NCBI GenBank assembly: GCA_963666565.1 | Contig: OY762911.1 | Location: forward strand, 1,440,001 to 1,504,000 | Source: Thermoanaerobaculia bacterium | GTDB taxonomy: Bacteria > Acidobacteriota > Thermoanaerobaculia > Multivoradales > Multivoraceae | DNA: 64,000 nt | Direction of reading: 5' to 3' | In this document: in pieces, positions 38,271 through 53,988 of the stretch | How the letters are laid out: each line of letters begins with the position of its first letter | How positions within the stretch are numbered: the stretch's first letter is position 1 | Translations under genes and position numbers: made by a program | Notes under the pieces: model-generated | The model's input: only the letters and a program-made list of their open reading frames with translations | Told to the model about the DNA's origin: nothing | Databases searched by the model: none

Positions 38271-38975
38271 TCACTCGACGGGCGGGTCGCCTGCCCCGGA
38301 GACCGCCAACCGCCAGCCCAGGAGACCCATGTAGACGATGCCGCTGGCGGACGTCAACGCGAACACCGGAGCGAGCGACAGCTCCAGCGTGTTCGAATGC
38401 CACGCGGCGATGAACAGCGCCAGCGCAACCAGGGTCAGCACGCCGACGATGCCGTTCAGCACCGGCGGCAGGCGCAGCGGCTCCGGTCGGGAGATGAGGC
38501 CGAACGCCAGCACCGCGATCCCGGCGTAGCCCGCGACGCTGCCCGTGAAGTGCAGACCCCATACCGTGCGCTGCATCGCCAGCGCCGTCGCCAGCGATTG
38601 CGCCGCCTGTTCCGGGTCGGACCCCAGCGCCGCCCTGCCAAAGCCGACGAGCATGTAGTCGAAGCCTCGCATCACCATCTGCAGGACCGCGCCGACCGTC
38701 ATACCGAGCAGGCCGAGCCGCGGCACGGGGGCGGCGTACCGCCGCAACGTCACGATGCCGTTCAGCATGAGCAAGGCGCCCAGGACGATGACGACCGCCA
38801 GGGCGTAGGACAGGGCGGCGTTGCGCCCCATCGCCAGCGTCAGGTCCGTCAGGCTGGTGCTGGGGACGGTATCCACCATGCCGCGGCCGGGCGACAGCGC
38901 GGAGGCGACAGCCACCGCGACGGTTCCGGACAGCAGCGACCAGCCGCCAAGTCTCGTTTCGGTCAAGCCCTTCAT
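38271..38975 (-). CDS. Integral membrane hypothetical protein
   Basis: About 6 hydrophobic segments; GAGGAGG RBS. Confidence 0.65.
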   Translation of the reverse strand: MKGLTETRLGGWSLLSGTVAVAVASALSPGRGMVDTVPSTSLTDLTLAMGRNAALSYALAVVIVLGALLMLNGIVTLRRYAAPVPRLGLLGMTVGAVLQMVMRGFDYMLVGFGRAALGSDPEQAAQSLATALAMQRTVWGLHFTGSVAGYAGIAVLAFGLISRPEPLRLPPVLNGIVGVLTLVALALFIAAWHSNTLELSLAPVFALTSASGIVYMGLLGWRLAVSGAGDPPVE

Positions 38976-39039
38976 GTGCCTCCTCGATCCGCCGTAGAGC
39001 GGCGGCAATCCGGTCCCTCCATGCGACTCCCGGACCCCC

Positions 39040-40344
39040 TCAGCGGCACTCCGCCGACAGCACCTCCGACTCGACGATCACGCCGCAGATGTGGCTCGTG
39101 TACTCGAAGGGGTCGCCGTCGAAGAGGGCGAGGTCCGCGTCCTTGCCGACCTCGACCGAGCCGACCCGGTCGTCGATGCCGAGGATGCGAGCCGGGCTCA
39201 GGGTGACGGCCTCCAGGGCGCGTTCCATGCCGAGGCCGTTGGCGGCGGCGATGGCGGCTTCCCAGAGCAGCACGCGGGTCTTCGGCACGTAGCCCTCGAA
39301 GCCGGTCTGGATGGCGAACGGGATGCCGGCGTCGGCGAGCTGCGAGGCGGTCTCGTAGGAGCCGTTGCGGACCCGGCTCATCGTCGGGTGGAGGAGGACG
39401 GGCACGCCGGCCTCCCGGATCTCGTCGAGCAGCAGGTAGGACTCGGCGGCGCCGTCGAGCACGAGGTCGAACCCGAACTCGCGCTGCAGCCGGAGCGCCG
39501 CGGCGATCTCGGGCACGGCGTTGGCCGTGATCAGCAGCGACAGCTCGCCGTCGAGGACCTGGCCGAGCGCCTCCTTGGCGAGGTCGCGTGGCGGCGGCTT
39601 GGGGGCCGGTTTGGCGTCGCCGTTCTCGTCGTCGTTGCCGGCTTCCTCGCCGTCCGCGTCGCTCTCGCCCTCATCGTCTCTGCCGGCTTCCTCCGCCTTG
39701 CGCACCTGCTCCAGGTACGCCTGGGCGCCGTGCAGCGCGTTCCGCAGCATCGCCACACCCTTGGCCGACGTTCCGGGCGACTGGAAGTTCGACGACACGG
39801 CGTTGCCGAGCGTCGAGGCGAGCATGCGCGCCGGCACGACGGCCGCCTGGTCGACGTTGCGGCCGCGGGTCTTGGCGATCATCGTCTGGCCGCTTATGAG
39901 CGCCCCGGGACCGTGGCCGGTGTGCAGCGTCGTGACGCCGTAGGAGCGCACCCACTCGACGAGGGTCTCGTTCGCGTCGTAGGCGTCGATGGCGCGAAGG
40001 TCGGGCTGGAGCGGCGAGGATCGTTCGAGTTGATCCTGGTCGCGCACCGGGCCGACGTTGCTGTTCAAGGCGCCCGAGAGGCCCACCACCGAGCGGGCGT
40101 CGACGAGGCCGGGCGTGACGACGGCGGCTTCGAGGACGTCCGTGCCGTCCGGGATGTCGGCTTCGGCGGTCGGGCCGACCCAGGCGATCTTCCCGTCCGC
40201 GCCGGCGATCACGACGGCGTTCTCGATCGCGTCGCCGGACACCGTGTGCAGCGTGCCGGCCCGCACCGCCACCTGTGCGGCGGCCGGCATGCCGGCGAGA
40301 GCTGCCAGAGCCACAAGAAAGGAGGTTGTACCCAAGCGCTTCAT
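39040..40344 (-). CDS. Secreted amidohydrolase-fold protein, probably non-catalytic
   Basis: TPGLVDARS instead of DxHxH; RVGSVEVGKDADL. Confidence 0.8.
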   Translation of the reverse strand: MKRLGTTSFLVALAALAGMPAAAQVAVRAGTLHTVSGDAIENAVVIAGADGKIAWVGPTAEADIPDGTDVLEAAVVTPGLVDARSVVGLSGALNSNVGPVRDQDQLERSSPLQPDLRAIDAYDANETLVEWVRSYGVTTLHTGHGPGALISGQTMIAKTRGRNVDQAAVVPARMLASTLGNAVSSNFQSPGTSAKGVAMLRNALHGAQAYLEQVRKAEEAGRDDEGESDADGEEAGNDDENGDAKPAPKPPPRDLAKEALGQVLDGELSLLITANAVPEIAAALRLQREFGFDLVLDGAAESYLLLDEIREAGVPVLLHPTMSRVRNGSYETASQLADAGIPFAIQTGFEGYVPKTRVLLWEAAIAAANGLGMERALEAVTLSPARILGIDDRVGSVEVGKDADLALFDGDPFEYTSHICGVIVESEVLSAECR

Positions 40345-41696
40345 CGCGTCTCTCCCAGCAGCAGCTCGTGGATCATCTCGTCTTCGTGGGCGGTCGTGCG
40401 GTAGACCTTGTAGCCGCCGACCGCGTACTTGCGGTGGTCCGGGTTGGCGCGGTCGTAGATCATCGTTCCCTCGACCCAGGTCTGCTCGACCTTCGTGTAG
40501 GCGCTCAGCGGATCGCCGGAGAGGATGACGAAGTCGGCGTCCTTGCCGGCTTCGAGCGAGCCGATCCGGTCCTCCAGTCCGAGCGCCCGCGCCGGCGCCA
40601 GGGTCAGCCCCTCGATCGCCTTGTCGCGCGACATCCCGTAGCGCACCGCCATCGCCGCGGCCCGGAACAGCAGCCGCGAATCGGTCACCGAGTCGTCCGT
40701 GTTGAAGCTGACGTCGACGCCCGCGCGCTCCAGGATCGCGCCCATCTCCATGTTCCAGTCGATCGTCTCCTCCTTGCCGCCCGGCGCGTCGATCCAGGTG
40801 ATCGACACCGGCACGCCGGCGGCGGCGAGTTCGTCGGCGACCTTCCAGGACTCCGTGCCGTGCTGGGCGACGACGCGGAACCCGAACTCCTCCTTGAGCC
40901 GCAGGACCGTGGCGATGTCGTTGTGGCGGTGCGTGTGGTGCTGGACGATCCGCTTGCCGTCGAGCACCTCGACCAGGGTCTCCATCCGCAGGTCGCGCTT
41001 CGCGGGCTCGCCGCCGTCTTCGCCGTCCTCGCCATCCTCGGCCTCGGCCTCGGCCATCTTCTCGCGGTACTCGACGGCCTCGTGGTAGAGGTTGCGGACC
41101 AGGGCGGCCGACTTGGCGCGGGTGCCGGGGAAGGGCGGCTGGCCGATCGAGTTCGTGCCGTTCGCCATCTTCAGGCCGCCGCAGATGCCGGTCAGCGGAT
41201 CGTCGCAGTAGAGCCAGTCCTCGATCGTGCGGGCGCCGTCGCGCAGCTTGACGTAGGCGGTCTGCCCGGACATGAGGTGCCCGGAGCCCGACATGATGTT
41301 GACCGTCGTGATGCCGCCGGCCCGGGCGCGCCAGATGCTGTCGGAGGCGACGTCGATCGAGTCGAGGTTCCGCACGTCCGGGTGCAGCGGCGCCGAGCGG
41401 TCGCCGCCGGAGACCGAGCCGATGTGGGAGTGGGTGTCGACGAGCCCGGGCATCAGCACCTTGCCGCCGAGGTCGTGCTCGACGGCGCCCCGGGGCGTGG
41501 ACGTGTCCGGGCCGCCGACGCCGACGATCCTGCCGCCCTGGACCACCAGGACGCCGTTGTCGATCGGCTCTCCGGCGATCGGCAGCAGCCGCGCGCCGCG
41601 GAAGACATGGGGATCGTCCTGCGCCGCGGCCGGCGTCGCGGCAAGAAGCGCCGGCAGCGCAACGGCGAACAGGAACGAGACGGGACGTTTTCTCAT
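40341..41696 (-). CDS. Secreted amidohydrolase
   Basis: MPGLVDTHSH, LKMANGTN, HTH, QHG and NTD motifs; RIGSLEAGKDAD; AGAGGAG RBS. Confidence 0.85.
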   Translation of the reverse strand: MRKRPVSFLFAVALPALLAATPAAAQDDPHVFRGARLLPIAGEPIDNGVLVVQGGRIVGVGGPDTSTPRGAVEHDLGGKVLMPGLVDTHSHIGSVSGGDRSAPLHPDVRNLDSIDVASDSIWRARAGGITTVNIMSGSGHLMSGQTAYVKLRDGARTIEDWLYCDDPLTGICGGLKMANGTNSIGQPPFPGTRAKSAALVRNLYHEAVEYREKMAEAEAEDGEDGEDGGEPAKRDLRMETLVEVLDGKRIVQHHTHRHNDIATVLRLKEEFGFRVVAQHGTESWKVADELAAAGVPVSITWIDAPGGKEETIDWNMEMGAILERAGVDVSFNTDDSVTDSRLLFRAAAMAVRYGMSRDKAIEGLTLAPARALGLEDRIGSLEAGKDADFVILSGDPLSAYTKVEQTWVEGTMIYDRANPDHRKYAVGGYKVYRTTAHEDEMIHELLLGETR

Positions 41697-41706
41697 GCGT
41701 GCTCCT

Positions 41707-42825
41707 CTAACGGCGGAACGACGGGTCAAGGTCGATACGGTACAACGCCTCCCGCGGCCGGCCGCCGTTGCGGCTGCCGCCCCAGACGACGTGGACGGCG
41801 ATGCGGTCGCCGCGGGGGCTCCAGGCCAGGTCGCCGACGTAGGCGTGGCCCAGGCTGTGGTCGGAGGCCGGATCGTTGAAGAACGTGAGCCGGCGCTTGT
41901 TCGAGCCGTCCGCGTCCATCAGCCACAGCTCGCGGCGGTCGGCGGCCGGCACCGCCTGGTCCGGCTCGGCGCCGCGGATTCCGGCGTTCGAGGTGAAGGC
42001 GACGTGCCGGCCGGTGGGCGACAGGCGGGCGTACTCGTCGGCGCCGCTCCGGGAGTGGGTGAGGCGCTCGGGCTCGCCGCCGTCGAAGCGCAGCCGGTAG
42101 AGGTCGAGCGTGTCGGGCGACTGCCCCGGTTCGAGGTTGGCCGCGACCAGCGCGCCGCGGTCGTCGGGCGTGTAGCCCTGCGGGACGATCAGGGCGTCGG
42201 CAGGCGCTGGATGCGTCCTGACCTTGCCCAGCCTCGGGATGCCGCTCCGCTTGACCTGGAACTCGGCACTGCGGAGGCGCCAGGTGCCGTAGCGGCCTTC
42301 GCGCGCCCTGAACCGCTCGCTCCACAGCAGCCGCTCGCCGTCGAACGCGAAGTGCGGGTCGAGCACCGCCGCGCCGCTGGCCGCGAATCGGGTGAGCAGG
42401 GTGAAGTGCTTGCCTCTCCGGTCGACGTCGTAAAACTCGCTGTGGACGCCGCGGTCGGGGGTCAGGAGCTGCAGCGGATCGGCCACGAACTTGAGCCGCT
42501 TCGGGTGGCTCTGGACCTGCACGACCAGCCGCTCGCCCGAGGGGTGCCACGCGGGGTTCAGCACGTTGTCCTTGCGGAGCTCGTACATCTCGCAGGTCAG
42601 GCAGCGCTCGGCCAGGAGGTCCGTCGACGTGACGTAGACGTCGTAGCGGCCGTCCTCGCCGGCCTTGTCGTAGGCCAGCCACTCGCCCTGGCGGGACCAG
42701 TCGACCCGGGCGCCGCCCTCGATCCAGCGTTCGATGCGCACCACCGGGTTCGTCTCCGGATCGGCGGCCGGCGCCGGCGCGGCGGCCGCGGCCAGCAGGA
42801 TGCAGATCAGGCGGAAACCGACCAT
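41707..42825 (-). CDS. TolB-like (PD40) beta-propeller secreted protein
   Basis: Signal peptide; repeated PAWHPSG, LSPTG and AWSPRG; MDADGSNKRRLT. Confidence 0.75.
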   Translation of the reverse strand: MVGFRLICILLAAAAAPAPAADPETNPVVRIERWIEGGARVDWSRQGEWLAYDKAGEDGRYDVYVTSTDLLAERCLTCEMYELRKDNVLNPAWHPSGERLVVQVQSHPKRLKFVADPLQLLTPDRGVHSEFYDVDRRGKHFTLLTRFAASGAAVLDPHFAFDGERLLWSERFRAREGRYGTWRLRSAEFQVKRSGIPRLGKVRTHPAPADALIVPQGYTPDDRGALVAANLEPGQSPDTLDLYRLRFDGGEPERLTHSRSGADEYARLSPTGRHVAFTSNAGIRGAEPDQAVPAADRRELWLMDADGSNKRRLTFFNDPASDHSLGHAYVGDLAWSPRGDRIAVHVVWGGSRNGGRPREALYRIDLDPSFRR

Positions 42826-42884: not shown

Positions 42885-42960
42885 CGCCCGCTGGGTGCGC
42901 GGTTCTTCCGACCCGCCGGGTGCGCGGGTCTTCCGACCCGCCGCCGCCGAAGGCGGCCGG
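42885..42960 (+). repeat. Tandem pair of REP-like cores
   Basis: Two head-to-tail GGGTGCGCGG(T/G)TCTTCCGACCCGC units + GCCGCCGAAGGCGGCC. Confidence 0.85.
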
Positions 42961-43031
42961 AAAGACGAGTCGGCCGCCAGGCCGGCACCGCGTTGGCGGC
43001 CGGGTTCCGGGCGAGCGGCTGGCGGGTTCGG

Positions 43032-44186
43032 TCAGCGCGAGGCCACGCCGACGAGTTGGCGCCCGGCGCCTTCGCGCGGCGCCTCTGGCGACACGTCCCG
43101 CGGCTTCGCCTCCGGCTGCCACTCCGGGAAGAACTGCCGGTACCAGCGCCGCAGCCGGACGACCGGCCCGTCGTCGCGGCAGAGCGTCGGATGCGTCGTG
43201 TAGGTCTTGTTCTCCCAGATCCGGATGTCGTGCTCCCACTGGGAGATCCAGTTGCCGACGACGTACCAAACGAGCAGGCGCGGCATCCGGCGGTCGGCGA
43301 ACCAGTGGAAGTCGACCTGCTGCTCGAGCGGCGCGACCGGAAGGTGGGTCTGAACGATGTCGACCTCGCCGGCGCCGGGGATCGTGATGCGGAAGTTCAC
43401 GATGCTGGCCGGACCGGTGCAGGTGACCCGGGCGCTTGCCCGGGTCCGTTCGAGGCGCCGGCCGAAGACCCTGAGCACGGTCCGGTCGAGGAAGTACAGC
43501 CGCCAGGGCTTGTCGTCGTCCAGTTCCCATCCGGGCGTGTGGACGAGCTGAACGCCGGGAACCGGAATCTGCGTCCACGGCACCGTCATCTGGCTGTGGA
43601 TGTACCGGAAATGGGCGAAGTCGGCCGTGTTCTCAAGGAACTCGACGATGTGCATGCGCACGCAGCCGGCGTCGTGGTGGCCGCGGTAGGCGAAGCTCCC
43701 GTCGTCGACCTCCGGGATGCGGGGAACCGGGTAGGGGACGTGGTCGCCGGCCTGTTGCTTCGGTCCGGCGGCCCGGTGATGCAGGAAGATCTGCCCGTTC
43801 ACGTCCTCCACGGGGAAGCTCTCGGCCGCGACGCGGGACGGCACGGTGTCGCTGTACGGCACGCAGGCCGCCCGGCCGTCGCCGGTGAACTGCCAGTTGT
43901 GGAACGGACACTCGATGCGGTCCTCGCGGACGCGGCCGTGCCTCAGGTTCGCGCCCAGGTGGGGGCAGAAGGCCTGCATCGCGTGGACGTCGTCGCTGTC
44001 TTCGCTCCGCCAGACGACCAGCGCGCGGCCGAGGCACTCCAGGTAGCGCACCTGCCCGCGCCGGAGCGACTTCGACGTCATCAGCCGGTACCAGCCGTCC
44101 GGGTAGGGATGCGGATAGCCGGCGAGACGGAGATCGTCCGAGGTCGGCGGTTCCCGGCGCCGCGAACGGCGAGTGATGGCGCCCAT
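43032..44186 (-). CDS. Rieske oxygenase, Neverland/DAF-36-like sterol 7-desaturase candidate
   Basis: PHPYPDGWY; CPHLGANL...IECPFH Rieske site; ENTADFAHFRYIH mononuclear Fe site; DIRIWENK..P.L..DDGP...RRWYRQF. Confidence 0.8.
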   Translation of the reverse strand: MGAITRRSRRREPPTSDDLRLAGYPHPYPDGWYRLMTSKSLRRGQVRYLECLGRALVVWRSEDSDDVHAMQAFCPHLGANLRHGRVREDRIECPFHNWQFTGDGRAACVPYSDTVPSRVAAESFPVEDVNGQIFLHHRAAGPKQQAGDHVPYPVPRIPEVDDGSFAYRGHHDAGCVRMHIVEFLENTADFAHFRYIHSQMTVPWTQIPVPGVQLVHTPGWELDDDKPWRLYFLDRTVLRVFGRRLERTRASARVTCTGPASIVNFRITIPGAGEVDIVQTHLPVAPLEQQVDFHWFADRRMPRLLVWYVVGNWISQWEHDIRIWENKTYTTHPTLCRDDGPVVRLRRWYRQFFPEWQPEAKPRDVSPEAPREGAGRQLVGVASR

Positions 44187-44270
44187 CGCGGACCTAACGC
44201 TGGCGGAAGGCAGGCATCCGCTCGAATCGGAACGAGGCGATCGGGTCGTTCACGAAGTCCTCCAGGCGGC

Positions 44271-45350
44271 TCACGAGGGAGTCGTCGCGTCGCCGTCCGG
44301 CTTGCGCGCGTGGATGAGGAAGGAGGGCGTGAAGATGCCCGCCACGCCGCCCTCGACGAGGGAGTCGGCGGCCACGTTCAGGATGCGGGCGGCCTCGCCG
44401 GTGCCGGCGGGCGCGATGCGGAGCAGCTCGAGCAGACGGGTCGCCCCGGCCGTGAACCGGCGGCCCGCGGGAATCCGCCCGAGCGACGCGAGCGAAAGGT
44501 CGCGTCCCTGGAGCGACCGGTACCAGGGAGTGTCCGGATCGCACTCGAGGGAGTAGTCCTTCGCGGCCAGGATCTCGAAGCCGGCAGCCCTGGCCGCGTC
44601 GAGCTGCTGCGAAGTCGTGAGCAGGTTGGGCGTCGCGTTGGCGACTTCAAGCCGGTCGCGGATGTCGCGGTGGGCGGGATCGCCCGCGTCGTACCTCGCG
44701 GTGAGGCACCAGTCATTCAAGGCCAGCTCGCCGCCCGGTCTGAGCAGACGGAAGAACTCCTTGAAGCAGAGGTCCGTTCGGGGCGCGTGACAGACGGCGT
44801 CGAAGGAGTACGCCGCATCGAAGCAGCCGTCCTCGAGAGGCACGTCCAGGAAGTTCGCGAGCAGGAAGTCGCACGTCTCTTCGAGCCCGGCCCGGCGCAC
44901 CGCCCTGCGGCCTCTCTCGATCTGGAGCGCATTGAGGTTCAGGCCCGTGATGCTGGCGCCGGTGGCCTTCGCGATCGCGATCATCGGCCCGCCGACGCCG
45001 CATCCGAGATCGGCGGCCTTCATTCCCGGCTTGAGATCCAGGAGTTCGGCGACGCCGAGTTCGTGGCGGCGGACCGAGTCCCGGAGGCTCTCCCCGGATC
45101 GCCGAGGAGAGAAGTGGAACGACTGCCCCCAGCCGTACTCGTAGAAGCGGGTGACGACGTCGTAGTAGCGACTCACCATGCCGGGCTGACCGCGCAGGGC
45201 GCGGTCTTCTTCCTCCGCGCCGACGAGTGCCTTCAGCTCGAGGTAATCGTCGAGCGCCTCTCTCAGGGAGCCGCCGCTGTTGGCGGCCACGTGCGGACGA
45301 CCCGGTGTCGTCTCCACGCCGTCAACGTCGATGTGCGCTGGCTCTGCCAT
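44271..45350 (-). CDS. Sterol 24-C-methyltransferase-like protein (ERG6/SMT family)
   Basis: YYD.VT.FYEYGWGQSFHF; DLGCGVGGP; ITGLN.N..Q; YSFDAVCHAP; RLLRPGG; PWY; LVEGG..GIFTP; GGGAGG RBS. Confidence 0.88.
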   Translation of the reverse strand: MAEPAHIDVDGVETTPGRPHVAANSGGSLREALDDYLELKALVGAEEEDRALRGQPGMVSRYYDVVTRFYEYGWGQSFHFSPRRSGESLRDSVRRHELGVAELLDLKPGMKAADLGCGVGGPMIAIAKATGASITGLNLNALQIERGRRAVRRAGLEETCDFLLANFLDVPLEDGCFDAAYSFDAVCHAPRTDLCFKEFFRLLRPGGELALNDWCLTARYDAGDPAHRDIRDRLEVANATPNLLTTSQQLDAARAAGFEILAAKDYSLECDPDTPWYRSLQGRDLSLASLGRIPAGRRFTAGATRLLELLRIAPAGTGEAARILNVAADSLVEGGVAGIFTPSFLIHARKPDGDATTPS

Positions 45351-45399: not shown

Positions 45400-45432
45400 C
45401 GCCCGCTGGGTGCGCGGGTCTTCCGACCCGCC
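45400..45432 (+). repeat. REP-like core
   Basis: CGCCCGCTGGGTGCGCGGGTCTTCCGACCCGCC, one mismatch to 42885-42917. Confidence 0.85.
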
Positions 45433-45506: not shown

Positions 45507-46664
45507 ATGACCGACGAAGCCGGCGCCCGGAAGCGAGCCAGTTTCGCCGTTCCGGCTCTGATCGCCCTGTGGATCGTCGGTTCGGCGCCCTTTCTGGGCC
45601 GCCTGACCCGGTGGATTCGGGAGGAGGTCGACCGTTCGCTTCTCGTGATCGTGCCGACGATCCTGTTCTGGGGCGCGGCGGCGGCGTTCGCGGTCTGGGT
45701 GGTGCGTTCGGCACGGCGCCTGCGATGGAAGAACTGGATCGCGATGGCGCTCGGTCTGCTCTGGGCGGTCGTCCAGGCGACGGCACTCGCCCGCGGCCGT
45801 CCCGAAGAGTCCGCCCTCGAGCGGATGCACCTGGTTCTCTACGGCGTCGTCGCTCTGCTGCTCTACCGGGCCTTCCTCCGGGGCGGCCGGTCGGCAATCG
45901 CGGCGGCGTTTTCGGCCGTTGCTCTGACTTCGCTCGTCGGGCTAGCCGACGAGTTCATCCAGTGGCTCGTGTGGGTCCGCGCCGGCGACTTCTACGACTG
46001 CCTGCTGAACGCCTCGGCCGCTGGCTGCGGCGTCGTCTTCGGGCTGGGCCTGTTCGGATTCGACCCCCGGTCCCCGCCTCTCCCGGAACGCCGCGCGATT
46101 GCCGTCCTGTGGGTCGTCCTCGCCGTGGCGTCGGTCGGCCTCGTCGATCTGACGAACCTCGGCCACCGGATCGTCGACCCGGAACTCGGCAGCTTCCAGA
46201 GCCACTACAGCGCCGAGCGGCTCGAGCGCCTGAACGAGAATCGCCGCGCCCGCTGGCCCGCGAAGCAGCCGCCGACGCCGCCCTTCCAGCCCTGGCAGGT
46301 CGAGGATCACTTCCTGTCCGAGGCCGCCTGGCATGTCCAGGCTCGCAACGAAGCCTTCGACGCGGGAGAGTGGGCCACCGCCGCCGCCGAGCAGGCGATC
46401 CTCAGCCGCTACTACCCGGCCGTGCTGGAAGAAGTTCGGAATCCCGACGGCAACCTGCGCCACGCCTTCCCGCTGGAGAGAGTCCAGCGGCTCCAGCAGG
46501 AAGGCGCTGTCCCCGTCCCGACGTACGAAAGCTCCGCGGGCGGCACCAGGATCTGGATCTGGCCGAGGTTCCTGGCGTCGACTCTCTTTCTTCTCGCCCT
46601 TCTCCCCGCGGTTCCGCTGTCGATGGTTGGGCATCGGCGCCGCACGATCCCGGACCGCTCATAG
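45507..46664 (+). CDS. VanZ-like membrane protein
   Basis: ERMHLVLYG...GLADEFIQW.V..R.GD..D..LN motif; multiple TMs. Confidence 0.7.
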   Translation: MTDEAGARKRASFAVPALIALWIVGSAPFLGRLTRWIREEVDRSLLVIVPTILFWGAAAAFAVWVVRSARRLRWKNWIAMALGLLWAVVQATALARGRPEESALERMHLVLYGVVALLLYRAFLRGGRSAIAAAFSAVALTSLVGLADEFIQWLVWVRAGDFYDCLLNASAAGCGVVFGLGLFGFDPRSPPLPERRAIAVLWVVLAVASVGLVDLTNLGHRIVDPELGSFQSHYSAERLERLNENRRARWPAKQPPTPPFQPWQVEDHFLSEAAWHVQARNEAFDAGEWATAAAEQAILSRYYPAVLEEVRNPDGNLRHAFPLERVQRLQQEGAVPVPTYESSAGGTRIWIWPRFLASTLFLLALLPAVPLSMVGHRRRTIPDRS

Positions 46665-50031: not shown

Positions 50032-53000
50032 ATGAACGGCCGGCGGATCTTCGCCGCGGTGACCGTCGGTCACCTCGGCATCGACATCTTCAACAGCATG
50101 GGGCCCGTGCTGCTGGCCTTCCTGCAGGCGCCGCTCGGTCTGAGCGCCGCGCAGATCGGCCTCGCGGTGGGCCTCTTCCAGGTCCTGGCCGGCACGACCC
50201 AGCCGGCGTTCGGCTGGCTGGTCGACCGGATCGGCAGCCGCTTCCTGGGTCCGCTCAGCGTCGCCGTCAACCTCGGCTGCGTGGCGCTCGCGGTCGCGGC
50301 CGCCGGCGCGACGGGCAGCTTCGTCCTGTTCCTCGTTCCGTTCGCGCTCGCCGCGGTCGCGTCGGGCGCCTTCCATCCGCTGGGCGTGATGCACTCCAGC
50401 ACGGTCAACCTGGCGCGCTCGGCCACGTTCACCGCCATCTTCTTCTTCTGCGGCCAGGTGGGGCTGACGACCGGGCCGGTCCTGGCCGGCCTCGCGCTGG
50501 ACCGCGCGGGGCTTGCCGGGATCTACTGGCTGGTGCTGATCGTCGCGCCGGTGCCGCTGTTCATGGCCTTCGCGATGGGGCCGCGGCGGGTCCATTCCGC
50601 GCCCGCCACGGCTCACCCGGGTGAGAGTCGGGCCGACGACGGCGTCGGCGACGCGGCGTCCGGCGGCCGGCTTCCCCTGCGGGTCGGCGCCGTCGCTCTG
50701 CTCGCGCTGGTCTTCGCCAGCCGGTCCTGGGCCGTGTTCGGGACGATCGCGTTTCTGCCCCTGCTGCTGAGCGGGTACGGCTACAGCTCCCTGGCCCAGG
50801 GGGTCGCCAGCGCGATGTTCCTGCTGGGCGGCGCCGTCACCGCGGTCTTCGCCGGCGCCTGGGCCGATCGCTGGGGCCGGCGCCCGGTCGTCTTTCTGAC
50901 CACGCTGCTCGGTTCGCTGCTGCTGGCCGTGTTGCCGGGCGCCGGCGGCTGGCTGTTCGCCGTCGTCCTGCCCTGCGGCGCGCTGCTGGGCGCCTCGCAC
51001 TCCATCCTGATCGTCACGGCCCAGTCGTTGCTGCCGTGGCGCCGGGGCCTGACCTCGGGGACGGCGCTCGGTTTCCTGTTCGCGACCGGCGGGATCGCCA
51101 CCTGGGCCATCGGCGAACTGGCCGACCGCTACGAACTGGCGACCGTGCTGCAGGCGGGGGCGATCGTCGGCTTGGTGTCCGCGGTCTCCTCCCTCCTCCT
51201 GCCGAGGCGGGGCCGGGCCCCGCTGGCGGCCGCGCCGGCGGTTTCGACGGCGCTCGTCGTCGCGGTCGCCGGCCTCACGCTGTTCGGCGCCCGTCCGGCG
51301 GCCGCCGGCCTGAACGGCGAGATCAACGGCCAGGTGCGCGACGCCGCGACCGACGTGCCGCTGGCGGGCGCGGAGATCAGGATCACGGGCGACCAGTTGC
51401 ACAGCACCCAGATCGTCCGCGCCGGCCGCGGCGGCAGCTACCGGGCGCCGGGCCTGCCTCCCGGCGACTACTACGTCGAGGCGAGCGTGGACGGCTACGC
51501 GACCTCCGTCGTCGAGAACCTGATCCTGGTCGCCGGCGGCGTGCTGCGGGTCGACTTCCGGATGAGGGCCGGCAGCGCCTCGGCGCTCGATCTCGTCACG
51601 TCGCCGCTGCTCGACGTGGTCACCGGCAGCGACGGCAACGTCCTCGCCGGCGACGACCTGCGCGAACTCCCTGGCGCCGCGGCGGCGTTCAACCTCGACC
51701 TGGCCTCCGGCCTCGACGGGCTGGACGGAGACGTGGCGGTCAACGGCTGGTCGCCCGGCTTCGCCACCTACCGGATCGACGGTCAGGAGAGCGCGGTCCG
51801 CGAACCGGACGCCGCTGGCATCGATCCTCGCTGGGTGGACCAGGTACGGGTCTGGACGATGGAACTGGCGGCCGCGATGGCCGGTCCGCACATCGACCTG
51901 ATCACGCGCTCGGGGGGGACCGAGTGGCGGGCCAACGGCGGCTGGTCGACGGTCGAGCCGCTCGACACAGGCAAGCGGCTGGCCCTGCGCCTGCTCGACG
52001 CCGGAGAGTCGCCGGCCGGCGGCAGGGACCGGAGACGCATCGAGGGCGACGAAGCGACCGTCTTCGCCGGCGGGCCGCTGCGGGACAAGCGGGCGCGCGC
52101 GTTCGGCGGCCATTCGAGAAGCCGCGCGCGCGGCACGGAGAACCTCTTCGGCGCGGGCGCGCCGCTGACCTGGGACGAGACGGTCGAACAGTCCGTCGGT
52201 AAGCTCGACTGGTGGGCCGGCTCGGCCAGCAACCTGACCCTCAAGCACCACAGCGCGGCCGGCGAGCTGGACGGCCGGCGACCGGCGCCGTTCGTTCTCC
52301 CGTCCGCGGACGGGAACGAGAGCGCCCGGTCGCGCCGGCAGACGACCAGCCTGAACGTGGAGTGGGGAATCACCGACCGGCTCTGGCTGCGCGTCTTCGG
52401 CGGGCGCTCCGACTTCACCGGGACGGGCGAACCGTGGCAGGACGCGGGGGCGTACTTCGCGGCGCCCGCGCCCGGCCGGGCGGCGGGCTGGTACGAGGCG
52501 GGTCCGGCGGGCCGGGTTCGGCGGGCGGTGGAGCGGCGGAACTGGGCGGTGGAACCGTCGTTCTTCTTCTTCGACCACACGCTGGAGGTCGGCGTGCAGA
52601 GCACGAAGGGCCGCCTGGATTTCGCCCGATCCGGACGCTCCGCGCGGATTCTGGAGTTGCCGGGCGGCCCGCTCGACACCTGGAGCGGCGATGGTGTCGG
52701 CGCTTACCGGCTCCGGCAGGAGAAACGCGCCGTCTACGTCCAGGACGCCTGGCGCGTTGGCGGCGCTTTCGAGCGGCGGCTGACGCTGCACGCGGGACTG
52801 CGCGCGGAAGAGGAAGAGGCGGGCCCGCTCGACCTTGAGTTCGAAGACCGCACGGAACCTCGGCTCGCGTTCGTCTGGGACGCCGCGGGCCGCGGCAGGT
52901 GGAAGGTCTACGGCGGCGCGGCGTGGTGGCACGTCGAGGTCTTCCGGCCGGGGGCGGGCCGCGCGGACGTCGACGCGGTCGCGGCCGTGGAAGCGGCCGG

Positions 53001-53988
53001 CGGCTACGGCGGCACGAGCCTCGACTTCGCACGGGCGGCGGTGGACCCTGACCTCCGTCCCGGCCGGGTGCGCGAAGTCCAGTTGGGTACGGTCTACCAG
53101 TTCCTGCCCGACGTCGTCATCTCGGCACGGGTCGCCCGGCGCCGGTTGCGGGACGGCATCCGCCTCCTGCCCGCGTTGGCCGGCGGCGAAGTCGTGCCGA
53201 CTCTGCTGACTCCCGGCCGCGGCGCCGGCCGGGCGCCCTGGGGCGAAGCCGGCGGGGAGCTTCCCCGGCTCGAGCAGAACTGGTGGGGCGCCGAACTGAA
53301 CGCTCATGTCGGCTTCAACCCCTCGTGGAGGATTCGCTTCTCGTACGTCCTGAGCCGGCTGACCGGCAACCACGAGGCCGGCGGACTCGGGCTCGGGCCG
53401 GGCGACCTGCCGGGCGCCCATCCGGCCCTTGCCGCGCTCGACCTGTGCTCCTCGCCCGTGCCCTGCGACGTGTTCGATGTCACGAACGACAGCCGCCGGC
53501 TGAGCCTCGACCGCGAGCACCAGCTCTCCGGCTGGCTCGTCCTCTCACCGGGCGAACGCTGGCAGATGGCCCTGGTCTACCGCTTCCGCACCGGCGCCGC
53601 CTACGTGCCGCGCGCCTTGGCGGTCCGGGTCGACGGGGAGAGCCGCATCCTCGGCGCCGGCCTGACTCCTTTGCCGTCCGGCGCGGACGGGCCGCTCAAG
53701 AGCGCCGATCTCAAGCGCGCCGACCTGTCTCTCACCTACCGCGTCCCGCTTCGCTCGGACGACCGGCGGCTGTCCCTCTTCGCCGAGGCCCTCAACGTCT
53801 TCGACCAGGACGCCGCGAACCAGCTCTGGCCGCTCGCCTGGCTCGACCCGGTCCTCGTCGGCCCGGGCCGTACCGACCTGCTCGCCGCCGCGGCAGCGCA
53901 GGGGGCAAGGCCGGATCCGCGCGAGTCGCTTCCCGCCGCCTTCCAGACCAGCCGCCGCGTACGCGCCGGTCTGCGCCTCCAGTTCTGA
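50032..53988 (+). CDS. MFS transporter (Fsr-like) fused to a TonB-dependent receptor-like outer-membrane protein
   Basis: aa 1-390: MFS with FGWLVDRIG and WADRWGRR motifs; aa 426 on: GEINGQVRD..TDVPLAGAEI / LPPGDY carboxypeptidase-regulatory-like domain, YVQDAW, LTLHAGLR, EALNVFD, C-terminal GLRLQF. Confidence 0.8.
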   Translation: MNGRRIFAAVTVGHLGIDIFNSMGPVLLAFLQAPLGLSAAQIGLAVGLFQVLAGTTQPAFGWLVDRIGSRFLGPLSVAVNLGCVALAVAAAGATGSFVLFLVPFALAAVASGAFHPLGVMHSSTVNLARSATFTAIFFFCGQVGLTTGPVLAGLALDRAGLAGIYWLVLIVAPVPLFMAFAMGPRRVHSAPATAHPGESRADDGVGDAASGGRLPLRVGAVALLALVFASRSWAVFGTIAFLPLLLSGYGYSSLAQGVASAMFLLGGAVTAVFAGAWADRWGRRPVVFLTTLLGSLLLAVLPGAGGWLFAVVLPCGALLGASHSILIVTAQSLLPWRRGLTSGTALGFLFATGGIATWAIGELADRYELATVLQAGAIVGLVSAVSSLLLPRRGRAPLAAAPAVSTALVVAVAGLTLFGARPAAAGLNGEINGQVRDAATDVPLAGAEIRITGDQLHSTQIVRAGRGGSYRAPGLPPGDYYVEASVDGYATSVVENLILVAGGVLRVDFRMRAGSASALDLVTSPLLDVVTGSDGNVLAGDDLRELPGAAAAFNLDLASGLDGLDGDVAVNGWSPGFATYRIDGQESAVREPDAAGIDPRWVDQVRVWTMELAAAMAGPHIDLITRSGGTEWRANGGWSTVEPLDTGKRLALRLLDAGESPAGGRDRRRIEGDEATVFAGGPLRDKRARAFGGHSRSRARGTENLFGAGAPLTWDETVEQSVGKLDWWAGSASNLTLKHHSAAGELDGRRPAPFVLPSADGNESARSRRQTTSLNVEWGITDRLWLRVFGGRSDFTGTGEPWQDAGAYFAAPAPGRAAGWYEAGPAGRVRRAVERRNWAVEPSFFFFDHTLEVGVQSTKGRLDFARSGRSARILELPGGPLDTWSGDGVGAYRLRQEKRAVYVQDAWRVGGAFERRLTLHAGLRAEEEEAGPLDLEFEDRTEPRLAFVWDAAGRGRWKVYGGAAWWHVEVFRPGAGRADVDAVAAVEAAGGYGGTSLDFARAAVDPDLRPGRVREVQLGTVYQFLPDVVISARVARRRLRDGIRLLPALAGGEVVPTLLTPGRGAGRAPWGEAGGELPRLEQNWWGAELNAHVGFNPSWRIRFSYVLSRLTGNHEAGGLGLGPGDLPGAHPALAALDLCSSPVPCDVFDVTNDSRRLSLDREHQLSGWLVLSPGERWQMALVYRFRTGAAYVPRALAVRVDGESRILGAGLTPLPSGADGPLKSADLKRADLSLTYRVPLRSDDRRLSLFAEALNVFDQDAANQLWPLAWLDPVLVGPGRTDLLAAAAAQGARPDPRESLPAAFQTSRRVRAGLRLQF

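What the first reader, a model, noticed from the sequence alone, without database searches (positions are those of the whole stretch)
43032..45350. Eukaryote-like two-gene sterol-remodelling cassette: C24-methyltransferase plus Neverland/DAF-36-like Rieske 7-desaturase
Seen: two adjacent co-oriented genes 84 bp apart. The first has all four SMT signature regions (YEYGWGQSFHF, DLGCGVGGP, DAVCHAP, RLLRPGG) and the SMT C-terminal LVEGG..GIFTP. The second has PxPYPxGW, CPHLGANL, HIxExxENxADxAH and RRWYxQF, which from memory match animal/protist cholesterol 7-desaturases better than KshA. Established: SMTs alkylate the sterol side chain with SAM; Neverland/DAF-36 convert Delta5 to Delta5,7 sterols; bacterial SMT homologues on their own are already known. 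Inference: there is no squalene epoxidase, cyclase or sterol catabolic gene in the window, so the pair may tailor host or dietary sterols into 24-alkyl-Delta5,7 (ergosterol/provitamin-D-like) sterols. I am not aware of this pairing being described as a bacterial unit. It would bear on symbiosis and on sterane biomarker interpretation.
Basis: partly seen in the sequence, partly recalled or inferred. Interest (0 to 1): 0.9.

Follow-up and report, generated by a model that had tools for sequence, protein, structure and literature searches.

The report
Bacterial sterol methylase–desaturase gene pair
A sponge-associated bacterium that cannot make sterols carries an adjacent sterol side-chain methyltransferase gene and a relative of the animal cholesterol 7-desaturase, so it probably remodels sterols made by its host or neighbours.

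Summary
Two intact minus-strand genes lie 84 bp apart: an SMT (44271-45350) and a Rieske/KshA_C oxygenase (43032-44186).

In a careful tree the Rieske protein groups with named Neverland/DAF-36 cholesterol 7-desaturases. KshA is excluded (support 100/99; AU test of a KshA grouping p=0.018). It is not SdmA (50 bits against a cut-off of 600).

The pair recurs. 53 of 80 loci from nine phylum labels have an SMT on the same strand, in two gene orders. The two proteins' distances are tightly correlated (rho 0.93).

The window's complete genome has no cyclase, squalene epoxidase, SdmA or CYP51-type gene. The core sterol cluster of a close relative is precisely absent between conserved flanks. An ERG4/ERG24 reductase is retained. 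47 of 76 other carrier genomes also lack an OSC, but 29 have full sterol clusters, so the pair is not limited to non-producers.

Relatives at about 90% identity occur in sponge metagenomes and one sponge metatranscriptome.

Enzyme activity, the position of desaturation and the source of the sterols are inferred, not shown. Host-sterol methylation by symbionts has been suggested before for Chlamydiae. I found no description of the Neverland-type partner or of the pairing.

The parts
44271..45350 (-). Sterol C-24 methyltransferase homologue (SMT), 359 aa; first gene of the pair
   Evidence: ORF. Pfam Sterol_MT_C 68.8 bits and Methyltransf_11 68.8 bits. It is the only Sterol_MT_C gene in the genome. 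1286 homologues, many labelled 'sterol 24-C-methyltransferase' by JGI.
44187..44270 (-). 84-bp intergenic spacer between SMT and Rieske gene
   Evidence: Coordinates. No terminator-like site inside it. One contig each from an RNA library (X11) and a DNA run (X10) of a relative joins the two genes, with 22 other letters in place of 96 (tables 5 and 5c).
43032..44186 (-). Neverland/DAF-36-type Rieske non-haem-iron oxygenase (proposed sterol desaturase), 384 aa; second gene
   Evidence: Pfam Rieske 77.6 bits and KshA_C 80.9 bits. C74, H76, C93, H96, D189, H192, H197 and D320 are invariant. Placed in a clade with named Nvd at 100/99 support. Grouping with KshA rejected by AU test, p=0.018.
42971..42984 (-). 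Weak terminator-like hairpin 48 bp after the Rieske stop codon
   Evidence: Two such sites were found in the region against a mean of 1.0 in shuffles, so this is not significant on its own.
42885..42942 (.). Two tandem copies of a 33-nt REP-like palindromic repeat downstream of the pair
   Evidence: The 25-nt core has 723 copies at 2 or fewer mismatches across the genome. It is a generic intergenic repeat, not specific to the pair.
45400..45432 (.). One copy of the same REP-like repeat, in the 156-bp region between the SMT start and the divergent VanZ-like gene (45507-46664, +)
   Evidence: No sigma-70 consensus was found in this region.

Best explanation
The two genes form a bicistronic sterol-tailoring cassette.

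The SMT transfers a methyl group from SAM to C-24 of a sterol with a delta24 side chain. The Rieske enzyme is a bacterial member of the Neverland/DAF-36 clade. It takes electrons from an unlinked reductase and uses O2 to desaturate the sterol nucleus, most likely at C7(8) as its eukaryotic relatives do.

This bacterium appears to be an Acidobacteriota sponge symbiont of the Candidatus Multivorans type. It has no squalene epoxidase, cyclase, C-14 demethylase or C-4 demethylase. Its substrates must therefore be sterols made by the host or by neighbouring sterol-producing symbionts. An ERG4/ERG24-type sterol reductase elsewhere in the genome probably belongs to the same remodelling route.

Shown here: gene structure, family membership by sequence and tree, conservation and co-evolution of the pair, absence of the core pathway from the genome, and presence in sponge samples.

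Inferred: all enzyme activities, the position of desaturation, the order of the steps, how sterol is taken up, and the benefit to the cell.
For: 1. Family. The SMT has both SMT domains.

2. Tree. The Rieske protein sits in a 100/99-supported clade with named Nvd from Xenopus, Latimeria, Takifugu, Scyliorhinus, Gigantopelta and Acrasis. KshA (L096, 562 bits to 4QDC) and SdmA-like proteins are excluded. The 87-row tree agrees (95 SH-aLRT). Forcing the family to group with KshA costs 30.2 lnL, p-AU 0.018.

3. Similarity. The nearest of 1.84 billion representatives are 39-52% identical, against 32% or less for plasmid KshA-type genes.

4. Catalytic residues are invariant.

5. Pairing. 53 of 80 loci have an SMT on the same strand within 3.3 kb: 37 directly upstream, 13 directly downstream, 3 nearby. 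SMT is the only neighbour family shared across phyla (50 loci under 9 phylum labels).

6. Co-evolution. Rieske and SMT distances correlate at rho 0.93, Mantel p 0.001. For between-phylum pairs only, rho is 0.87 (43 pairs).

7. The window's genome is one contig, 97% complete. It has no PF13243, no PF08491, no match to a symbiont SE-OSC protein, and no SdmA above 51 bits.

8. Missing core block. The SdmB-SdmA-P450-SE-OSC block of relative G010 is absent between flanks that are 94% and 75% identical and lie 202 bp apart.

9. Retained partners. An ERG4/ERG24 reductase scores 243 bits, and 235 bits to 4QUV. A Fer2-FAD-NAD reductase is also present.

10. Other carriers. 44 of 47 OSC-negative carrier genomes have an SMT. 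Of 16 OSC-negative chromosome-level assemblies, 15 have an SMT.

11. Habitat. A sponge-metagenome contig (X8) at about 90% identity spans both genes. Sponge metatranscriptome contigs (X11) at about 90-92% identity cover both genes.

12. Literature. Sponge-symbiont SMTs methylate desmosterol and 24-methylenecholesterol in vitro (Brown et al. 2023, PMC10070321, passages). In Capsaspora a Rieske C7-desaturase, a C22-desaturase and an SMT are proposed to convert taken-up cholesterol to ergosterol (PMC4967820, passages).
Against: - No activity has been measured for any member of the bacterial Rieske family.
- The bacterial proteins lack the N-terminal membrane helices and the C-terminal L-D-W end of named Nvd proteins.
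- Signature columns favour Nvd only modestly: 9 shared with Nvd only, 3 with KshA only, and 4 where Nvd and KshA agree against the family.
- 29 of 76 carrier genomes have an OSC in full sterol clusters, so the pair need not imply scavenging.
- In those clusters the ERG4/24 reductase of the type retained here sits beside the C-14 and C-4 demethylation genes. Its role without them is unclear.
- 27 of 80 loci have no SMT within the flanks. The four myxobacterial genomes have the Rieske gene but no SMT at all.
- No sterol uptake system was identified.
- The RNA-library contigs do not prove transcription, as the tool itself warns.
- The identity of this SMT to the assayed SMTs is unknown, because the supplements are closed.
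Confidence: 0.55

Rival explanations
1. The pair does tailor sterols, but the Rieske enzyme does something other than C7(8) desaturation. It could hydroxylate, or desaturate at another carbon of the nucleus or side chain.
For: Rieske oxygenases of this superfamily carry out 9-alpha-hydroxylation (KshA) and C-4 methyl oxidation (SdmA), so chemistry shifts between clades (PMC10202945 passage). The bacterial family is a separate clade, 99/85 support, at only 39-52% identity to the eukaryote-type sequences. Four columns conserved in both Nvd and KshA differ in the family. Some loci place it beside an FAD oxidoreductase and a FA_desaturase-like gene, which suggests a longer tailoring route.
Against: Its nearest named relatives are all annotated cholesterol 7-desaturases, and the clade with them has 100/99 support. 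Nine signature columns are shared with Nvd and absent from KshA.
Confidence: 0.25
2. The substrates are not sterols. The pair would modify another lipid, for example a hopanoid or another isoprenoid made by the cell.
For: 16 of the 17 close Acidobacteriota relatives searched (G001-G016 yes, G059 no) have a cyclase match of 350 bits or more; all 4 that I fetched from this clade carry DxDDTA, the squalene-hopene cyclase type. No sterol uptake system was identified. No family member has been assayed.
Against: The window's genome has no cyclase of either type, so it makes neither hopanoids nor sterols, yet it keeps both genes intact. The SMT carries the sterol-specific C-terminal domain. Sponge-symbiont SMTs act on sterols in vitro (PMC10070321). 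An ERG4/ERG24 sterol reductase co-occurs in 59 of 76 carrier genomes and in 0 of 14 control genomes.
Confidence: 0.1
3. The genes are decaying leftovers of a lost de novo sterol pathway and no longer function in this organism.
For: The core cluster present in relative G010 is absent here between conserved flanks. One relative (L063) has its Rieske match split in two pieces.
Against: Both ORFs are intact with all catalytic residues. GC3 is 0.88-0.92, like the neighbouring genes. The pair is kept in all 17 close relatives, 14 of which lack an OSC. Contigs from an RNA library cover both genes of a relative. The SE and OSC genes of the three OSC-positive relatives are of two different types, separate or fused, which fits later gain as well as loss.
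Confidence: 0.05
4. The Rieske protein is a KshA-type 3-ketosteroid 9-alpha-hydroxylase used to break down steroids for carbon.
For: The best solved-structure match is KshA (4QDF, 131 bits). Pfam names the C-terminal domain KshA_C.
Against: Xenopus Nvd matches KshA equally well (127 bits). KshA lies outside the 100/99 clade. AU rejects the grouping, p=0.018. The conserved neighbour is a biosynthetic SMT, not a catabolic gene. I made no dedicated search for steroid-degradation genes such as KstD or Hsa.
Confidence: 0.03

Closest known systems
Neverland / DAF-36 / DES7 cholesterol 7-desaturase (EC 1.14.19.21) of animals and protists
   Same: Rieske plus KshA_C architecture with the same metal ligands. 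Same clade in the tree at 100/99 support. 33-45% identity to eukaryote-type members. IMG and the ESM Atlas already auto-label bacterial members 'cholesterol 7-dehydrogenase/desaturase'.
   Different: The bacterial proteins are soluble-looking, with no N-terminal membrane helices and no C-terminal L-D-W end. They form their own clade (99/85). They are encoded in an operon with an SMT. Activity is untested. Whether the bacterial clade is nested inside the eukaryote-type sequences or is their sister is unresolved (AU p=0.33).
Bacterial SMTs of sponge symbionts and other uncultured bacteria (Brown et al. 2023, PMC10070321; Brown and Welander 2025 preprint)
   Same: Same domain pair, same kind of source (sponge-associated MAGs), and the same proposed reaction. 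That paper raises methylation of host-acquired sterols for a Chlamydiae MAG.
   Different: The main texts never mention a Rieske desaturase, Neverland or 7-dehydro sterols: 0 occurrences (2023 paper); 'Rieske' and 'desaturase' only (preprint). They stress de novo synthesis. Here the complete genome lacks the core pathway.
KshA, 3-ketosteroid 9-alpha-hydroxylase oxygenase
   Same: Same superfamily and fold, and the best solved-structure match.
   Different: About 27-32% identity. Outside the clade. A clade with KshA is rejected. No catabolic gene context.
SdmA, bacterial Rieske C-4 sterol methyl oxidase
   Same: A Rieske oxygenase acting on sterols in bacteria.
   Different: Only 49.9 bits against a cut-off of 600, and over the N-terminal half only. 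Genomes G021, G050 and G057 have a separate SdmA-like gene of 398-414 bits as well as this family. It serves as the outgroup in the trees.
Capsaspora owczarzaki conversion of taken-up cholesterol to ergosterol (PMC4967820)
   Same: Uses a Rieske C7-desaturase and an SMT on a sterol the cell did not make at that stage (passages).
   Different: It is a eukaryote, the genes are unlinked, and a P450 C22-desaturase is also involved.

Membership tests
Neverland/DAF-36 cholesterol 7-desaturase | Rieske [2Fe-2S] motif CxH...CxxH | tested here: met
   C74, H76, C93 and H96 are invariant in 14 of 14 family members and conserved with Nvd and KshA.
Neverland/DAF-36 cholesterol 7-desaturase | KshA_C-type catalytic domain with mononuclear iron ligands | tested here: met
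   PF19298 80.9 bits. D189, H192, H197 and D320 are conserved. The assignment of these residues as iron ligands is recalled from KshA, not computed here.
Neverland/DAF-36 cholesterol 7-desaturase | Groups with named Nvd/DAF-36 to the exclusion of KshA and other Rieske oxygenases | tested here: met
   100/99 support in the 45-row careful tree. 95 SH-aLRT in the 87-row tree. AU test of a clade with KshA gives p=0.018.
Neverland/DAF-36 cholesterol 7-desaturase | N-terminal membrane anchor and conserved C-terminal L-D/E-W end seen in named eukaryotic members | tested here: not met
   7 of 8 named Nvd printed end in W (Takifugu ends in F); the window protein ends ...GVASR. Eukaryote-type representatives have hydrophobic N-termini and the window protein has none. 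Whether these features define the family is my own reading.
Neverland/DAF-36 cholesterol 7-desaturase | Converts cholesterol to 7-dehydrocholesterol | not testable with these tools
   Needs expression and GC-MS.
Sterol C-24 methyltransferase (ERG6/SMT1) | SAM methyltransferase domain plus Sterol_MT_C domain | tested here: met
   PF08241 68.8 bits and PF08498 68.8 bits, both above cut-off.
Sterol C-24 methyltransferase (ERG6/SMT1) | Region I sterol-binding motif YEYGWG and SAM-binding motif LGCGVGGP | tested here: met
   Both are present in the translation. The region names are recalled, not taken from a tool.
Sterol C-24 methyltransferase (ERG6/SMT1) | Methylates delta24 sterols | not testable with these tools
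   Sponge-metagenome homologues are active in vitro (PMC10070321). Their identity to this protein is unknown.
KshA 3-ketosteroid 9-alpha-hydroxylase | Orthology to characterised KshA | tested here: not met
   131 bits to 4QDF, against 562 bits for a true KshA. Outside the clade. AU p=0.018.
SdmA C-4 sterol methyl oxidase | Reaches the NCBIfam NF052579 cut-off (600 bits), or at least a full-length match | tested here: not met
   49.9 bits over residues 32-200 only. A separate SdmA-like paralogue exists in 3 sterol-producing genomes.

The most novel reading that the evidence does not exclude
Bacteria of at least eight phyla living in sponges share, by horizontal transfer, a two-gene cassette that turns host sterols into 24-alkylated delta5,7 sterols. 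If so, the unusual sponge sterols, and the sterane biomarkers traced to them, would be joint products of host and microbes and not of either alone. The bacterial clade would also be the closest prokaryotic kin, and a possible donor or recipient, of the Neverland/DAF-36 enzyme that starts ecdysteroid and dafachronic-acid synthesis in animals.
Probability: 0.25. Interest if true: 0.85.

Novelty: new variant of a known kind. Interest (0 to 1): 0.72.

Why it matters
Bacterial SMTs have been used to argue that side-chain-alkylated steranes, including the 24-isopropylcholestane 'sponge biomarker', could come from bacteria making sterols de novo.

Most carriers sampled here lack an OSC: 47 of 76 genomes, and 16 of 20 chromosome-level assemblies. 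They still keep an SMT, a Neverland-type oxygenase and often a sterol reductase. That points to remodelling of sterols made by others. It changes who counts as the 'producer' of such lipids and gives a testable gene set.

It also extends the Neverland/DAF-36 family, known from animals and protists, to a bacterial clade. This gives soluble, operon-encoded versions that may be easier to express and to solve than the membrane-bound eukaryotic enzyme. There is no Neverland entry among the solved-structure matches.

From memory, not from any call: many sponges are rich in delta5,7 sterols. A symbiont 7-desaturase would offer an origin for them.

Tried and rejected
1. First tree (159 rows, FastTree). 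My ORF extractor picked antisense ORFs for about 10 loci, which produced a false long-branch cluster and placed KshA inside the Nvd group. I discarded it, re-extracted by requiring the Rieske motif and rebuilt the tree.

2. Early reading that carrier genomes lack an OSC. After I took all strong PF13243 hits as squalene-hopene cyclases and dismissed the 170-205-bit hits in frames of about 1150 aa. Searches showed these are squalene epoxidase-OSC fusions in full sterol clusters. I corrected the reading.

3. 'Bacterial family nested inside eukaryotic Nvd, hence transfer from a eukaryote.' The free trees show this. The AU test does not reject all bacterial sequences lying on one side (delta lnL 10.5, p=0.326). 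I make no claim about direction.

4. REP-like repeats flanking the pair as a sign of a mobile cassette. Rejected: about 723 copies occur genome-wide.

5. Fused N-terminal domains in long representatives (560-745 aa) as SMT-Rieske fusions. Pfam finds nothing in the extensions for any of 10 tested.

6. Downstream beta-propeller, two amidohydrolases and a membrane protein as part of the unit. They are syntenic only within Acidobacteriota, so I do not count them.

7. SMT product chain length from the Gly249 rule of the 2025 preprint. I could not map it without their alignment.

8. Small-share holders that I did not lay (X5-X7, X9, X12-X17) are not used as evidence of habitat.

The Atlas gave only leads: arthropod nvd at 0.97 and giant-virus Rieske proteins at 0.95 for P0246.

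11. Not done: structure prediction, complex prediction, a search for steroid-catabolic genes, a named SMT phylogeny, and a test of sponge enrichment against non-sponge genomes.
Full report
**1. What is there**

The window has about 70% G+C. Two ORFs lie on the minus strand. One is 359 aa at 44271-45350. The other is 384 aa at 43032-44186. They are 84 bp apart. Third-position G+C is 0.88 and 0.92, like the surrounding genes.

Pfam gives the first protein Sterol_MT_C (4.4e-19) and Methyltransf_11. It gives the second Rieske (7e-22) and KshA_C (1.8e-22).

The SMT is the upstream gene. A VanZ-like gene diverges from it on the other strand (45507-46664). A weak terminator-like hairpin follows the Rieske stop codon, and none lies in the spacer. 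By itself the hairpin is no more than chance would give.

**2. What the Rieske protein is not**

NCBIfam's SdmA model (the bacterial C-4 sterol methyl oxidase) gives 49.9 bits against a cut-off of 600, over the N-terminal half only. Three sterol-producing genomes that carry the window's family also carry a separate, full-length SdmA-like gene of 398-414 bits. In that search the window's own gene scored 51.4 bits and G021's copy of the family 39.6 bits.

The best solved structure is KshA, at 131 bits. A named Xenopus Neverland protein matches KshA just as well, at 127 bits. A real KshA from a Rhodococcus plasmid scores 562 bits.

**3. What it is**

An exhaustive search of 1.84 billion representatives gave 8464 hits at E<=0.001. 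Below a few bacterial clusters, the nearest are 39-52% identical. They look eukaryotic, with hydrophobic N-termini and a shared C-terminal L-D-W end.

One hit from that list, P0292, was used as a query and brought in proteins that NCBI and UniRef name 'cholesterol 7-desaturase nvd' or 'DAF36'. They come from fishes, amphibians, birds, a mollusc and the amoeba Acrasis.

A first tree was spoiled by my own ORF-extraction errors and was discarded.

The repaired 87-row tree used IQ-TREE with LG+C20 PMSF and was rooted on SdmA-like proteins. It unites the window's family, the named Nvd proteins and the eukaryote-type sequences at 95% SH-aLRT, with KshA outside. The careful 45-row tree gives that clade 100/99 support. 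The bacterial family is monophyletic within it at 99/85.

An AU test rejects a clade of the family with KshA (delta lnL 30.2, p=0.018).

In the free trees the bacterial family sits nested among eukaryote-type sequences. A tree with all bacterial sequences on one side is not rejected (p=0.326). Nested or sister, and hence any direction of transfer, stays open. The unnamed sequences nearest the bacteria may be protist or giant-virus proteins; that is an Atlas lead only.

Signature columns agree modestly with the tree. Nine are shared with Nvd only, three with KshA only, and 36 are common to all three groups.

**4. Is the pairing real?**

A scan of one genome per species found 104 relatives of the Rieske protein, and the best 80 were kept.

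- An SMT lies on the same strand within 3.3 kb in 53 of the 80 loci. It is directly upstream in 37, directly downstream in 13 and nearby in 3. The other 27 have none in the flanks held.
- I clustered all 1123 called neighbour proteins. SMT is the only family that recurs across phyla, in 50 loci under nine phylum labels. All other neighbours follow lineage synteny.
- For the 43 pairs where my gene caller found both genes, the Rieske and SMT distance matrices correlate at rho 0.93 (Mantel p=0.001). For between-phylum pairs alone rho is 0.87.
- Pairs in different phyla reach 72-87% identity. MAG binning errors could inflate that last point.
- Two Myxococcota and Spirochaetota MAG loci carry SMT, then an FAD oxidoreductase, then the Rieske gene, then a FA_desaturase-like gene. 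A GGR-type FAD enzyme was recently shown to be a bacterial sterol C-24 reductase (PMC12004948, passages). I did not test whether this one is its orthologue.

**5. The genome behind the window**

The genome is a single contig of 4,786,144 bp, 97% complete, with no N bases.

What it lacks:
- any squalene-hopene or oxidosqualene cyclase domain;
- a squalene epoxidase domain;
- any match to six relatives' cyclases;
- any match to a symbiont SE-OSC protein.

What it has:
- one SMT;
- two KshA_C-type Rieske genes;
- one ERG4/ERG24 sterol reductase of 385 aa, scoring 243 bits in Pfam and 235 bits to the solved bacterial delta14-sterol reductase 4QUV;
- one Fer2-FAD-NAD reductase that could feed the Rieske enzyme.

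In the close relative G010 (Candidatus Multivorans by its record title), five genes lie between two flanking genes: SdmB-like, SdmA-like, P450, squalene epoxidase and OSC. In the window's genome those flanks are 94% and 75% identical and sit 202 bp apart, with none of the five genes anywhere in the genome.

Loss here and gain there are both possible. The three OSC-positive genomes of this clade carry two different arrangements, separate or fused.

**6. The other carriers**

I first misread the cyclase hits. The strong ones (350 bits or more) carry DxDDTA and look like squalene-hopene cyclases, 6 of 6 checked. The 170-205-bit ones carry DCTAE, 5 of 5 checked. In four of the five they follow an FAD-binding start in one protein of about 1140 aa; in G010 the epoxidase and the cyclase are separate genes. 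They lie in clusters with SdmA-like, SdmB-like, ERG24-like, P450 and SMT genes. The meaning of both motifs is recalled.

A direct protein query finds a true OSC in 29 of 76 genomes (my threshold was 44% identity or more over the cyclase part).

Genome-wide, among the 76:
- SMT is in 69, and in 0 of 14 control genomes.
- ERG4/ERG24 is in 59, and in 0 of 14 control genomes.
- Among the 47 OSC-negative genomes, 44 have an SMT, 33 have the reductase and 33 have the adjacent pair.
- Of 20 chromosome-level assemblies, 16 lack an OSC, and 15 of those 16 have an SMT.
- No trait differs significantly between OSC-positive and OSC-negative genomes (Fisher p 0.05-0.42).

The four myxobacterial genomes (Plesiocystis, two Nannocystis, one Myxococcales MAG) have the Rieske gene, OSC, SdmA or SdmA-like genes and reductases, but no SMT.

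Four loci were not searched as genomes: L007, L024, L030 and L056. The last three belong to MAGs already covered.

**7. Where it lives**

Many record titles carry names coined for sponge symbionts, such as Candidatus Poriferisodalis, Poriferihabitaceae and Multivorans. That these are sponge lineages is my recall. The describing papers are not in the library.

Four runs of one study hold the locus almost whole. They may be its source and so do not count as independent evidence. Nine of the 13 small-share rows are labelled sponge metagenome.

I laid three of the small-share runs:
- X8 has a 1889-nt contig at about 90% identity, running from inside the Rieske gene through the whole SMT.
- X10 has shorter pieces of both genes.
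- X11, a metatranscriptomic library, has contigs at about 90-92% identity over both genes. One contig joins the two genes across a shorter spacer.

The tool warns that DNA can be present in RNA libraries and that a contig is not a transcript. This is therefore a hint of expression, not proof.

**8. How it most likely works**

Shown: two intact, conserved, co-inherited genes of the SMT family and the Neverland clade, in a complete genome that cannot make a sterol nucleus and keeps a sterol reductase.

Inferred:
- The SMT methylates C-24 of delta24 sterols such as desmosterol.
- The Rieske enzyme, fed by the unlinked reductase, introduces a nuclear double bond, most likely C7(8).
- The reductase trims a double bond somewhere in the product.
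- The sterols come from the sponge or from OSC-positive co-symbionts.

Capsaspora offers a eukaryotic parallel, where a Rieske C7-desaturase and an SMT act on taken-up cholesterol (PMC4967820). I put this reading at 0.55. Most of the remainder goes to a different oxygenase chemistry on the same class of substrate.

**9. What is known and what is new**

Already known:
- Bacterial SMTs from sponge symbionts are active in vitro.
- Bacterial sterol clusters occur in sponge metagenomes.
- A symbiont (Chlamydiae) might methylate host-acquired sterols.
All three are in Brown et al. 2023 (passages).

Automatic pipelines already label some bacterial members 'cholesterol 7-dehydrogenase/desaturase'.

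The terms I searched gave no occurrence of this family. 'Rieske' and 'desaturase' are absent from Brown 2023, the Brown and Welander preprint and the 2025 Myxococcota paper. 'Neverland' and '7-dehydro' are also absent from Brown 2023. In the 2023 cholesterol paper 'Rieske' occurs once, for SdmA, and 'desaturase', 'Neverland', 'C-7' and 'KshA' do not occur.

Five library searches found no paper on a bacterial Neverland-type enzyme or on its pairing with an SMT. The library leaves out most subscription journals, and the supplements were closed. The Rieske gene may appear in supplementary gene maps under another name.

I rate the finding a new variant of a known kind.

Noticed in passing
window 42885-42942 and 45400-45432; 9 copies in the window: A 33-nt palindromic REP-like repeat. 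Its 25-nt core has 723 copies at 2 or fewer mismatches across the 4.79-Mb genome. It causes depth spikes and false 'skip' joints when contigs are laid on the locus.
   Followed up: partly
own genome G000:C1:1248796-1249953 (+), outside the window (locus L101/L102): An ERG4/ERG24-family sterol reductase, 385 aa, scoring 235 bits to the solved delta14-sterol reductase 4QUV. It lies directly after an MFS transporter gene, in a genome without a cyclase. The family is present in 59 of 76 genomes that carry the Rieske family and in 0 of 14 control genomes.
   Followed up: partly
own genome G000:C1:3707693-3712262 (-), outside the window (locus L103): A second Rieske/KshA_C gene (366 aa, neither Nvd-type nor KshA-type). 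It is followed by a GPP34 (Golgi phosphoprotein 3 domain) fused to a cytochrome P450 (667 aa, best solved match CYP51 at 92 bits) and by a flavin amine-oxidase-like gene. A sulfatase lies upstream. This may be a second lipid-tailoring cluster.
   Followed up: partly
L104 7197-10616 (-), L105 8994-12437 (+), L107 6499-9957 (-), L108 8369-11749 (+): Single proteins of about 1130-1150 aa that join a squalene-epoxidase-like FAD domain to an oxidosqualene cyclase (DCTAE). They sit in sterol clusters of Vicinamibacterales, Dehalococcoidia, Poriferihabitaceae and Pseudomonadales MAGs. In Candidatus Multivorans G010 (L106) the two are separate genes.
   Followed up: partly
own genome G000:C1:1365516-1365719 compared with L106 3055-10006: The five-gene core sterol block of a close relative (SdmB-like, SdmA-like, P450, SE, OSC) is absent from the window's genome at a conserved site only 202 bp wide. 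This is a clean presence/absence difference within one symbiont clade.
   Followed up: yes
L041 7772-12603 and L040 2209-7160: A four-gene run on one strand: SMT, an FAD-dependent oxidoreductase (possibly like the Bsr C-24 reductase), the Rieske gene and a weakly FA_desaturase-like 480-aa protein. It occurs in Myxococcota and Spirochaetaceae MAGs that share 84-87% identity across these genes.
   Followed up: partly
P0094 / L039 (Candidatus Poriferisodalis sp.), G036:C1:261753-261860: This Rieske protein ends in a tail resembling the C-terminus of an SMT (precomputed Pfam PF08498; weak Sterol_MT_C hit of 36.7 bits). It looks like a leftover from a rearrangement that changed the gene order.
   Followed up: no
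L063 10055-11060 (Candidatus Multivorans sp., G059): The Rieske match is split into two pieces, so the gene may be disrupted. This genome also has no cyclase or ERG4/24 hit, but has three Sterol_MT_C hits.
   Followed up: no
window 50032-53988 (+): One open frame of 1318 aa carries an MFS transporter domain, a CarboxypepD_reg domain and a TonB-dependent receptor barrel. It is either an odd fusion of inner- and outer-membrane parts or two genes that my start-finding merged.
   Followed up: no
window 38271-42825 (-): Downstream of the pair on the same strand lie a PD40-like beta-propeller, two amidohydrolases and a membrane protein. They are syntenic with the pair in most of the 18 Acidobacteriota loci (L001-L017, L063; 11-18 of them, by gene) and nowhere else among the 80.
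   Followed up: yes
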